In this document: in pieces, positions 1 through 3,000 of the stretch | Numbering within the stretch: the stretch's first letter is position 1 | Layout: every line of letters starts with the position of its first letter | Source: Gekko japonicus | Lineage: Eukaryota | Reading direction: 5' to 3' | Assembly: GCF_001447785.1 (NCBI RefSeq) | Contig: NW_015161413.1 | Coordinates: forward strand, 103,045-167,044 | DNA length: 64,000 bases | Position numbers: made by a program

Positions 1-3000
1 TAAAGTTATGCTGGGTAGAATCCCATGGTCAGAAATACTTAAGGAGAAGGGAGCTCAAGAGGGATGGGAGTTTCTTAAAAGTGAGATACTGAAGGCACAA
101 TCACAAATGATTCCTATGAGAAGGAAAAATGGGAGGAGCCTAAATAAGCCAAGGTGGCTCCATAAACAGCTTTCTATGGACTTGAAAAATAAAAAAATAC
201 TCATTCAAAAAGTGAAAGGCTTCGGCAGCACATATACTAAAACTGAAATGATACAGAGAAGTTTAGCATGGCCCCTGCGTAACAGAGAGCCGGGTTTGAT
301 CCCCCACTCCTCCACTTGCACTTGACTGGATGACTTTGGGCAAGCCATAATTCTGGCACAGCTGTTCTTGAAAAAAGAGCCGTTTCTGTCAGAGTTCTCT
401 CAGTCCCACCTACCTCACAGGTGCTAATGAGTCCCCCTAGCTCTTTTTCTATGAAATGACCCCTGCTCACAGGATGTCTGTTGTGGGGAGGGGAAGGGAA
501 AGGAGTTTGTAAGCTGCTCTGAGACACCTTTGGGTAGTGAAGGGCAGGGTATAAATCCAATCTCTTCTTCTTCTTCTAACAACAGATGTAATTTCTGAGC
601 CTCTGTCCATTATTTTTGAGAATTCTTGGAGAACAGGTGAAGTGCCGGATTGGAGATGGGCAAATGTTGTCCCCATCTTCAATATGGGTAAAAAAGATGA
701 TCTGGGTAACTATCGACCCATCAGCTTGACATCTAATACCTGGGAAAGTTTTAGAACAAATCATCAAACAGACAGTCCTTGAGCATTTAGAAAGGATGGT
801 TGTAATTTCTAAGAGCCAGCAAGGATTTCTCAAGAACAAGTCATGTCAGACTAACCTTATCTCTTTTTTGAGAAAGTTACTACCTTGCTGGATCAGGGGA
901 ATGCTGTAGACATAGTTTATCTTGATTTTAGTAAGGCTTTTGATAAGGTTCCACATAATATGCTTGTTGACAAATTGGAAAAATGTAGTTTGGATCCTAT
1001 GACTGTTAGGTGGATGTTAGCCAATCTGCTTTATCTACAACAGATGGCAAACTAAATTTAATAAGGGTTCCCGCCAAAGTTTACGGAGGTTCTGTCCACC
1101 CCAAGAATGTCCCAGTGAGAGAGACGAGACTGGTGGATTTCAAGAATTTAAAAATCACATACACACAAAAACAGAATCACACACACATACAATCAAGTTC
1201 CCTTAGGATTACAGCAATAGAAAAATAGTTCCCTTTTACTTAGGAGGTAGGCAGGTATCGGTTTATACTTATCTTTCTTGAAGCCTTGTCTGATGCAATG
1301 AAGAACAGGGGAAGAAATAGTACCTAGGGATATTTCTAATTCACACTGCTAGAACCAGCCAGCAAAGTGTGGACCTCTTTGGCTGCAGTCCAAGAGATCA
1401 AGAATAGACAATGGGGTTGTTTGATAGTAAGCTGGACTTTAGGGGATAAAAGTAGACAGAGGATGATGAAGGGGAATGTGGCTAGCAAAGGACCCTGCAC
1501 ATGGTCCCTAGCTTTTATAGGTGAATATTTGGGGTGGTTGGCAACCTTGCCATCCTGAGATCCACCTACTTGTTAGTCCGTCCCATCCCTACATCTTATT
1601 GGTGTGTGTAGTAAGGGGCAGAACCTTTAAGGGTTGGGTCAATATTGAAATACTAGATCTAACTCAGGACAAGCCATCTGGTCAGGTGTGAAATCTCAGC
1701 GTCAAGACATCACCTTGAAGTGCAGATAGATACCGGCTTCCCCAGGCAATCAAAGCAACATCTTCCAGGAAATGGCAATTCAGATGAAGATCAGATCTGT
1801 GTATTGAGTGACATCCAGTCCTTCAGTAATGGGGGATTACTTGTCTTTAAACTGTGGTTTCTGCTAACAATGGTGAAATGTGCTTCTTCCCCTGAGGCCA
1901 GGATCTTGTATATCTACAAGCTTCATTAACATGAAATGCAGGTAGCACTTTCTCTGTGTAAGCTCTAAAAACAAGTAATTCAAGCAGCTTTCCCTAAGCC
2001 TAGGGTGTATGTGTATGCACAGTTCATGTAAAGTTTGTGTGTGTCAGCAGATATAGATCCATAAACATAAAATATCAGTCTCTTTCTCAACATGGATCTG
2101 TAACTGGTTCACAGGTCACACCCAAAGTGTGATTGTGAATGGTTCCTCATCTTCTTGGAGAGGAGTGACAAGTGGAGTGCCTCAAGGATCTCTCCTGGGA
2201 TCTGTTTTGTTCAACATCTTTATCAATGATTTGGATGAAGGGATAGAGGGAATGCTTATCAAATTTGCAGATGATACTAAATTGGGAGGAGTAGCAAATA
2301 TGGTAGAAGACAGAATCAGGATACAGGATGATCTTGACAGGCTGGAAAACTTGGCTAAAACAAATAAAATGAATTTCAGTGAGGATAATGTAAAGTTCTG
2401 TAGGAAAAATCAAATGTATAATTATAGGTTGGGGGAGACTTGTCTTGGCAGTAGTATGTGCGAAAAGGATCTAGGGGTCTTAATAGACCATACAGTGTGA
2501 TGTGGTTGCTAAAAAGGCAAATGTGATTTTGGGCTGTATCAACTGAAGTATAGTGTCCAGATCATGAGATGTGATGGTACCACTTTACTCTGCTCTGGTT
2601 AGACCTCATCTAGAGTATTGTGTTCAGTTTTGGGCACCACAATTACAGAAGGATATAGACAAGCTGGAACATGTCCATAGGAGAGCAATGAAGATGGTGA
2701 AGGGTCCGGAAACCAAGTCCTATGAGGAAAGGTTGAAGGAGCTTAGTATGTTTAGCCTGGAGAGGAGACGACTGAGAGGTGATATGATAACCATCTTCAA
2801 GTACTTGAAGGGCTGTCATCTAGAGGATGATACGGAGTTGTTTTCTGTTGCCCCAGAAGGTCAGACCAGAACCAATGGGTTGAAATTAAATCAGAAGAGT
2901 ATTTAGCTAAACATTAGGAAGAACTTCCTCACAGTTAGAGTGGTTCCCCAGTGGAATAGGCTTCCTCAGGAAGTGGTGGGATCTCCTTCTTTCGAGGTTT

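What the first reader, a model, noticed from the sequence alone, without database searches (positions are those of the whole stretch)
219..577. U6 snRNA 5' part fused to a 5'-truncated tRNA SINE (U6-SINE chimera)
Seen: U6 nt ~7-70 is joined directly, in the same orientation, to a Squam3-like SINE that starts just before its B box, so U6 replaces the SINE A-box region. Established: U6-L1 and 3'-truncated U6 retro-chimeras occur in mammals, and snRNA-headed SINEs (SINEU, U1/U2) exist in crocodilians. Inference: this is either a one-off template switch by the SINE's mobilising LINE (probably not L1) or one copy of a U6-headed SINE family in geckos. The U6 cut lies in the internal stem-loop loop.
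Basis: partly seen in the sequence, partly recalled or inferred. Interest (0 to 1): 0.72.

Follow-up and report, generated by a model that had tools for sequence, protein, structure and literature searches.

The report
U6 fragment fused to gecko-type SINE
A piece of the spliceosomal U6 RNA is joined head-to-tail to a beheaded lizard SINE inside an old CR1 element, most likely a dead one-off by-product of retrotransposition of a kind already described in lizards and platypus.

Summary
Rfam finds one U6 match in the 64 kb window, at 212-282 (53.6 bits, gathering score 44, model positions 1-68 of 105). It abuts, in the same orientation, a Squam3-like SINE that lacks its first ~42 nt, including the A box. 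The SINE keeps its B box (293-303), its body and a (TCT)5 tail (563-577).

The unit sits in a CR1 LINE copy from which about 139 codons (~417 bp) are missing exactly at the insertion. There is no target-site duplication around the whole unit or around U6 alone. U6 is also cut at its 5' end, and its first bases are better read as CR1.

The best reading (confidence ~0.55) is a single chimeric retrocopy. An L2-clade reverse transcriptase copying SINE RNA switched onto U6 internally, and integration deleted target DNA. The main rival is a later ~0.5 kb deletion between an independent U6 retrocopy and a SINE.

U6 chimeras with L2-mobilised SINEs are already published for Anolis (six) and platypus (Doucet 2015). 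This is therefore a new member of a known kind. The internal U6 breakpoint is its only unusual trait. The U6-headed family idea could not be tested, because no squamate genome was searchable.

The parts
1..218 (+). Host CR1-like LINE, ORF2 region between endonuclease and reverse transcriptase (upstream flank; runs off the window start).
   Evidence: The frame 2..220 translation hits 225 library proteins at E<=1e-3. tblastn places P0105 aa 303-355 at 38-196 and P0010 aa 127-193 at 11-209. Relatives read a K-W-K-x-G motif where the window reads KVKG (212-220).
219..282 (+). U6 snRNA fragment, cut at both ends. It ends at Rfam model position 68 of 105. The 5' limit lies somewhere in 212-220.
   Evidence: Rfam RF00026, 53.6 bits, gathering score 44. 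45 of 51 positions match the consensus in model 18-68. Bases 212-218 are better read as CR1, and their stem pairs are marked non-standard.
283..284 (.). Two bases at the U6/SINE junction that fit neither parent clearly.
   Evidence: The Rfam alignment stops at 282. BLASTN homology to other SINE copies starts at 285 (query position 3). One copy (8220 series) would allow a match from 283 (A1).
285..562 (+). Squam3-like SINE body lacking about the first 42 nt (acceptor/A-box part of the tRNA-like head).
   Evidence: There are 186 matches, 27 mismatches and 62 gap columns against a crude 3-copy consensus.
293..303 (+). B box of the SINE's tRNA-like head.
   Evidence: Pattern scan, 1 mismatch to the recalled B-box consensus. 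The same motif is found in other copies.
422..465 (.). Private 44-bp insert inside the SINE, bracketed by the direct repeat CTCACAGG (414-421 and 466-473). It is a fragment of another interspersed repeat and contains TTTTT at 444-448.
   Evidence: Absent from 6 of 6 other copies. Direct repeat D10. Matches window 40092-40136 on the minus strand at 82% over 45 nt and 96% over 26 nt. T run.
563..577 (+). SINE tail, (TCT)5, which is the (CTT)n type.
   Evidence: Tandem Repeats Finder. (CTT)n is the tail reported for Squam3B and 3B3 (PMC7983390).
578..1016 (+). Host CR1 resumes at the start of the reverse-transcriptase domain, about 139 codons downstream of where it stopped.
   Evidence: tblastn places P0105 aa 504-649 and P0001 aa 72-217 at 582-1016. 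The CR1 continues at 2057-3035, and an 8-bp repeat lies at 3293-3312.

Best explanation
This is a one-off, transcriptionally dead chimeric retrocopy made in a single retrotransposition event by the L2-clade LINE machinery that mobilises Squam3 SINEs.

Proposed steps, all inferred:
1. Reverse transcription started on the (CTT)n tail of a Squam3B3-like SINE RNA at a nick inside an old CR1 copy.
2. It ran through the SINE body to about SINE position 43, at the structured tRNA-like head.
3. It then switched template onto a U6 snRNA at an internal position (model position 68) and copied U6 almost to its 5' end.
4. The cDNA end was joined, perhaps through 1-2 nt of microhomology, to a site about 417 bp upstream. 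The intervening CR1 sequence was lost and no target-site duplication was made.

Shown: the parts, their order, orientation and boundaries; the missing CR1 stretch; the lack of duplications.
For: - U6 and the SINE are in the same orientation and directly abutted, with at most 2 unassigned bases.
- The 3' partner keeps an intact 3' end and tail and is 5'-truncated. This is the layout of published U6 chimeras (PMC4476161, passages and section 10).
- Chimeras with repeats are a major class of lizard U6 copies. Table 2 of that paper lists 16 of 41 analysed Anolis copies as repeat-associated. The text lists 3 with L1, 3 with L2, 3 with RTE and 6 with AnolisSINE2.
- Platypus U6/L2 chimeras almost all have a 5'-truncated U6 and small or no duplications, as here.
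- No duplication brackets U6 alone.
- Divergence of the two halves is of the same order. U6 has 6 of 51 positions off the consensus. The SINE has 27 mismatches in 213 aligned positions against a crude consensus.
- Internal landing in single-stranded loops is described for U5 and U3 chimeras.
Against: - No target-site duplication marks the unit as one event.
- The site carries a deletion of about 139 codons of the host CR1 (4 of 8 two-sided relatives give 130-139, one gives 99, three give 27 or less). A later genomic deletion would explain this equally well.
- The breakpoints rest on protein-level comparison with distant CR1 relatives (41-84% identity). No DNA consensus of this CR1 family was available.
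- Only one locus was seen.
Confidence: 0.55

Rival explanations
1. Two independent insertions plus one later deletion. A U6 retrocopy and a full-length Squam3 SINE landed about 0.4 kb apart, in the same orientation, in the CR1 copy. A single genomic deletion of about 0.5 kb, running from inside U6 to inside the SINE head, then removed the U6 3' part, the CR1 stretch between them and the SINE's first ~42 nt.
For: - One deletion accounts at once for the missing ~139 CR1 codons, the truncated U6 3' end, the truncated SINE head and the absence of any duplication.
- The missing CR1 part is found nowhere else in the window.
- Squam3-like copies are dense here, 7 in 64 kb, so a SINE within 0.5 kb of a U6 retrocopy is not rare. 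My rough estimate is a few per cent of U6 copies (inference).
Against: - It needs three events, with both deletion ends falling inside two short elements.
- Published lizard data show that U6 directly joined to a LINE or SINE is common as a chimera.
- This is a prior, not a test on this locus.
Confidence: 0.17
2. The chimeric RNA came first. An endonucleolytic U6 fragment ending in a 2',3'-cyclic phosphate was ligated (RtcB-type ligation) to a SINE RNA fragment with a 5'-OH. The joined RNA was then retrotransposed through the SINE's L2-type 3' end. The end product is the same as in the best explanation, but the junction is made at a different step.
For: - RtcB joins U6 to L1 and other RNAs before retrotransposition in human cells.
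- The authors note that 3'-truncated small RNAs could enter the same route if an endoribonuclease leaves a cyclic phosphate (PMC6789731, passages).
- The junction here has no clear microhomology and 0-2 unassigned bases.
Against: - The ligation route explains full-length U6 ends, since the natural cyclic phosphate sits at the mature 3' end. Here U6 stops at model position 68, so an extra cleavage must be assumed.
- Nothing in the DNA separates ligation from template switching.
Confidence: 0.1
3. One copy of an amplified U6-headed SINE subfamily derived from Squam3.
For: - snRNA-headed SINEs without known internal promoters do exist: SINEU in crocodilians, with U1 and U2 heads (PMC4494074, passages).
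- The B box and the L2-type tail needed for mobilisation are retained.
Against: - The U6 part has no second copy in the window (1 row, itself; 1 hit).
- There is no A box.
- No internal promoter is reported for vertebrate snRNA genes.
- U6 is 5'-truncated against CR1.
- A 64 kb window has almost no power to detect a family, so this is weak evidence.
- Searches of the paper library for U6-derived SINEs and for gecko + SINE + U6 snRNA found nothing beyond Doucet 2015.
Confidence: 0.05
4. Independent adjacent insertions or filler DNA. A 5'-truncated SINE inserted first. A 3'-truncated U6 retrocopy later landed exactly at its 5' edge, or both cDNAs were captured while a double-strand break that had lost 417 bp was repaired.
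For: - 3'-truncated U6 copies are the largest class in Anolis, 25 of 41 analysed (Table 2).
- The target deletion with no duplication fits break repair.
Against: - Exact abutment within 2 bp, in the same orientation, by chance is very unlikely (inference from the SINE density).
- No duplication flanks U6 alone.
Confidence: 0.05

Closest known systems
U6/AnolisSINE2 chimeras of Anolis carolinensis and U6/Mon-1 and U6/L2 chimeras of platypus (Doucet et al. 2015, PMC4476161, section 10 read in full)
   Same: U6 lies 5' of a 5'-truncated, L2-mobilised SINE in the same orientation. A non-L1 LINE is implied. In platypus, U6 is usually 5'-truncated and target duplications are small or missing.
   Different: Here U6 also lacks its 3' third, so the junction is at model position 68, not at the U6 3' end. 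About 417 bp of target is lost, and the SINE is Squam3-like. The paper's supplementary lists of lizard chimeras could not be seen, so I cannot say whether any of them has an internal U6 junction.
Mammalian U6/L1 chimeric pseudogenes (Buzdin 2002 as cited; Doucet 2015; Moldovan 2019, PMC6789731, passages)
   Same: Two-part retrocopy with the snRNA 5' and the retroelement 3', made in one integration.
   Different: The mammalian ones have full-length U6 ending in its T run, an L1 partner, a poly(A) tail and L1-type duplications. None of these is present here.
U5/L1 and U3 chimeras with 3'-truncated small RNA (Doucet 2015, passages)
   Same: The small RNA is 3'-truncated at the junction, which is read as the transcriptase landing internally, in single-stranded loops.
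   Different: A different snRNA and an L1 partner. For U6 the paper says this had not been observed.
SINEU, crocodilian SINEs with U1- or U2-derived heads (Kojima 2015, PMC4494074, passages)
   Same: An snRNA-derived 5' part sits on a LINE-dependent SINE body.
   Different: SINEU families have many copies, and their heads are U1 or U2. Here a single locus has been seen, with U6.

Membership tests
U6 snRNA-derived sequence (Rfam RF00026) | Score at or above the curated gathering score | tested here: met
   53.6 bits against 44.
U6 snRNA-derived sequence (Rfam RF00026) | Full-length gene (all 105 model positions) | tested here: not met
   Only model positions 1-68 align. Positions 1-7 are doubtful because their pairs are non-standard and they read as CR1. 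This is a fragment, not a gene.
Squam3 SINE (Vassetzky et al. 2021) | tRNA-derived head with A and B boxes | tested here: inconclusive
   Other window copies carry an A-box-like and a B-box motif. The focal copy has only the B box. ARAGORN calls no tRNA in the window.
Squam3 SINE (Vassetzky et al. 2021) | Tail of (CTT)n (3B/3B3) or (TAAA)n (3A/3C), with a body of 218-271 nt | tested here: met
   (TCT)5 at 563-577. Other copies measure 224-229 nt and 257-259 nt without tail, against 221-225 (3A) and 238-271 (3B/3B3) in Table 1 of the paper.
Squam3 SINE (Vassetzky et al. 2021) | Alignment to the published consensus, CORE segment and L2-like 3' end | not testable with these tools
   The consensus is only in a figure and in supplements, which are not held. 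The name Squam3 here rests on architecture, tail, length and abundance.
Template-switch U6 chimera (Buzdin/Doucet type) | snRNA 5' of a 5'-truncated retroelement, same orientation, direct junction, intact retroelement 3' end | tested here: met
Template-switch U6 chimera (Buzdin/Doucet type) | One target-site duplication flanking the whole chimera | tested here: not met
   No direct repeat links 190-220 with 565-600. Instead about 139 CR1 codons are missing. Duplications are also often missing in platypus L2 chimeras and in Squam3.
Template-switch U6 chimera (Buzdin/Doucet type) | U6 complete at its 3' end at the junction | tested here: not met
   U6 stops at model position 68 of 105.
snRNA-headed SINE family (SINEU-like) | Several copies with the same head/body junction in unrelated flanks | tested here: inconclusive
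   Only this locus is in the window.
CR1 LINE (host element) | ORF2 reverse-transcriptase homology and an 8-bp repeat at the 3' end | tested here: met
   Hits to jockey/CR1-like reverse transcriptases carrying PF00078. Collinear tblastn pieces run to 3035. (TCTATGAT)2.5 lies at 3293-3312. That this repeat marks the CR1 3' end is my recollection of CR1 structure.

The most novel reading that the evidence does not exclude
The locus is one copy of a so far undescribed U6-headed SINE lineage in gekkotan lizards. It would have been born when an L2-clade reverse transcriptase jumped from Squam3 RNA into the internal stem-loop region of U6. That would make it the first SINE with a U6-derived head and the first sign that an L2-type enzyme lands internally on U6.
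Probability: 0.05. Interest if true: 0.6.

Novelty: new member of a known kind. Interest (0 to 1): 0.2.

Why it matters
As a single dead copy it matters little. It adds a gecko-type example to the published evidence that non-L1 LINEs (L2 clade) also make U6 chimeras, and it shows two less usual traits: an internal U6 junction and a 0.4 kb target loss. If many copies shared the junction, it would show how a new SINE head can be acquired. It would also give a natural record of where on U6 an L2-type reverse transcriptase can land.

Tried and rejected
- Word-indexed protein search with the upstream CR1 piece: 79 candidates, none at E<=1e-3. I replaced it with the exhaustive search.
- Self-BLAST of both CR1 flanks against the window, to find a paralogous 'empty site': only self hits. 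Breakpoints in CR1 are therefore known at the protein level only.
- A U6-like 15-mer inside the SINE's private insert (families D3 and D9) looked like a second U6 jump. I rejected this because the insert matches another repeat at 40092-40136 (96% over 26 nt), which contains the same letters.
- tblastn of P0010 runs in frame through the U6 stretch to 280. After KVKG only 6 of 24 residues are identical, so I take it as a chance extension.
- ARAGORN found no tRNA-like gene.
- PMC11838501 (passages) held nothing on reptiles or truncated U6.
- Whether the U6 cut lies in the internal stem-loop loop was not tested. The 3' strand of that stem is absent here, and the Rfam structure line shows no pairs in positions 18-68.
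- A script error was repeated correctly.

Full report
**What is there.** Window 1-1200 was read. Rfam's covariance models find one U6 match, at 212-282 on the + strand. It scores 53.6 bits against a gathering score of 44 and covers model positions 1-68 of 105, with E = 5.4e-12 in 3 kb. It is the only Rfam hit of any family in the 64 kb window (E = 1.1e-10). In model positions 18-68 (window 232-282), 45 of 51 positions equal the family consensus, by my count on the printed alignment. The U6 identity of 221-282 is therefore beyond chance.

**The SINE.** BLASTN of 283-580 against the window gives 14 rows: itself, 12 rows in six other SINE copies, and one row at 40092-40136. The six copies lie at 6200-6364, 8316-8425, 19252-19479, 27212-27439, 38310-38504 and 62332-62555.
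- In the alignment of the seven copies (A1), the full copies run about 42 nt further 5' than the focal one, through a tRNA-like head.
- The focal copy aligns from about 285, eight bases before its B box (293-303, 1 mismatch).
- No A box is present in the U6 part.
- The tail is (TCT)5 at 563-577.

**SINE family.** The window copies fall into two length classes without tail: 224-229 nt and 257-259 nt. Vassetzky et al. 2021 describe Squam3 as having a tRNA head, a CORE-like middle, an L2-like 3' end, and (TAAA)n or (CTT)n tails. They give body lengths of 221-225 nt (3A) and 238-271 nt (3B/3B3), with 3B3 dominant in Gekkonidae, and note very few target-site duplications (PMC7983390; outline and first part of Results read). 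I use the name Squam3 on that architecture alone, because the published consensus is not held as text.

**Surroundings.** Both flanks belong to one CR1-like LINE copy.
- The upstream frame (2-220) finds 225 library proteins at E<=1e-3.
- The downstream frame (579-782) finds 4 reverse transcriptases from turtle, birds and one unnamed source.
- tblastn places P0105 residues 303-355 at 38-196, 504-649 at 582-1016 and 633-785 at 2057-2497. P0001 then carries the match on to 3035.
- An 8-bp repeat at 3293-3312 probably marks the CR1 3' end. That assignment is recalled CR1 structure.

**The missing CR1 stretch.** Of 154 fetched proteins, 148 match the upstream piece, 12 match the downstream piece and 8 match both.
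- In 4 of these 8, the two pieces lie 130-139 residues apart.
- In one they lie 99 residues apart.
- In three they lie 27 or fewer apart. These three are short predicted proteins, probably from damaged copies (inference).

About 139 codons, or ~417 bp, of the CR1 are therefore absent exactly where the 359-bp U6-SINE unit sits. The missing part is not found elsewhere in the window.

**Junctions.**
- *5' junction.* Relatives read a K-W-K-x-G motif where the window reads KVKG at 209-220. The Rfam stem pairs at 212-218 are marked non-standard. I therefore place the CR1/U6 junction at about 218/219, with 1-2 bases shared.
- *Middle junction.* U6 ends at 282 and SINE homology starts at 285. Bases 283-284 are unassigned.
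- *3' junction.* The tail ends at 577 and CR1 protein homology resumes at 582.
- *Duplications.* A repeat search with 6-nt seeds over 150-650 finds no direct repeat that brackets either the whole unit or U6 alone.

**Mechanism.** The layout is that of published U6 chimeras: snRNA 5', a 5'-truncated retroelement with an intact tail 3', same orientation and direct junction. Doucet et al. 2015 (PMC4476161; abstract, passages, and sections 8 and 10 in full) report the following.
- In Anolis, U6 is joined to L1 (3 copies), L2 (3), RTE (3) and AnolisSINE2 (6).
- In platypus, there are 40 U6 chimeras with L2 or the SINE Mon-1. U6 in them is mostly 5'-truncated, and duplications are only 1-9 bp, present in 72.5% of cases.
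- Internal landing of the transcriptase is typical for U5 and U3 but 'has never been observed' for U6/L1.

I therefore read the locus as a single chimeric retrocopy made by the L2-clade partner of Squam3, with an internal switch onto U6 and a target deletion (confidence 0.55). Moldovan et al. 2019 (PMC6789731, passages) show that U6/L1 RNAs can be ligated before retrotransposition. They allow the same route for 3'-cut small RNAs. The DNA cannot separate that variant from a template switch.

**Rivals.** A later ~0.5 kb deletion between an independent U6 retrocopy and a full SINE in the same CR1 would produce exactly this picture, including the missing CR1 stretch. It needs three events. I rate it 0.17 on priors only: the SINE density of 7 copies in 64 kb and the high share of chimeras among lizard U6 copies.

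The family reading has no support here. There is one copy in the window, no A box, a TTTTT run at 444-448, and a statement that no internal promoter is known for snRNA genes (PMC4494074, passages). However, 64 kb has almost no power to detect a family, and SINEU shows that such heads can spread. I leave it at 0.05.

**Novelty.** Library searches for SINEU + snRNA, for U6 snRNA + chimera + LINE-2 + SINE + lizard, for U6-derived + SINE, and for gecko + SINE + U6 snRNA gave no report of a U6-headed SINE or of U6 chimeras in geckos. They do show that the kind is known in Anolis and platypus. The verdict is an ordinary, dead retro-chimera and a new member of a known kind, with an unusual internal U6 junction.

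**Left unchecked.**
- Any squamate genome; the junction search was not possible.
- The supplements of the papers.
- The published Squam3 consensus.
- The position of the cut in U6 secondary structure.

Noticed in passing
window 414-473: The focal SINE carries a private 44-bp insert (422-465) bracketed by an 8-bp direct repeat, CTCACAGG. It is a fragment of another interspersed repeat also seen at 40092-40136 on the minus strand, and both end at the same point. It could be a tiny later insertion with a target duplication or a further template jump.
   Followed up: partly
window ~1017-2094: The host CR1 is interrupted a second time by about 1.08 kb that starts with TG, ends with CA and is flanked by TGGA on both sides. 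This looks like a solo LTR. It was not identified further.
   Followed up: no
window 6200-6364, 8316-8425, 19252-19479, 27212-27439, 38310-38504, 62332-62555: Six more Squam3-like SINE copies fall into two length classes: 224-229 nt, and 257-259 nt with an extra ~33-nt segment and a CTT-type tail. With the focal copy this makes 7 copies in 64 kb. By my rough estimate that is about the 2.5% share reported for Gekko japonicus in PMC7983390.
   Followed up: partly
window 3293-3312: (TCTATGAT)2.5, an 8-bp repeat about 260 bp after the last CR1 protein homology. It is probably the CR1 3' end.
   Followed up: no
window 3923-4132 (+) and 48808-48984 (-): Two weak further reverse-transcriptase-like tblastn matches to P0105 (27-31% identity, E about 1e-4). 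The second lies between the two runs of N in the 48-50 kb region. The N runs were left alone.
   Followed up: no
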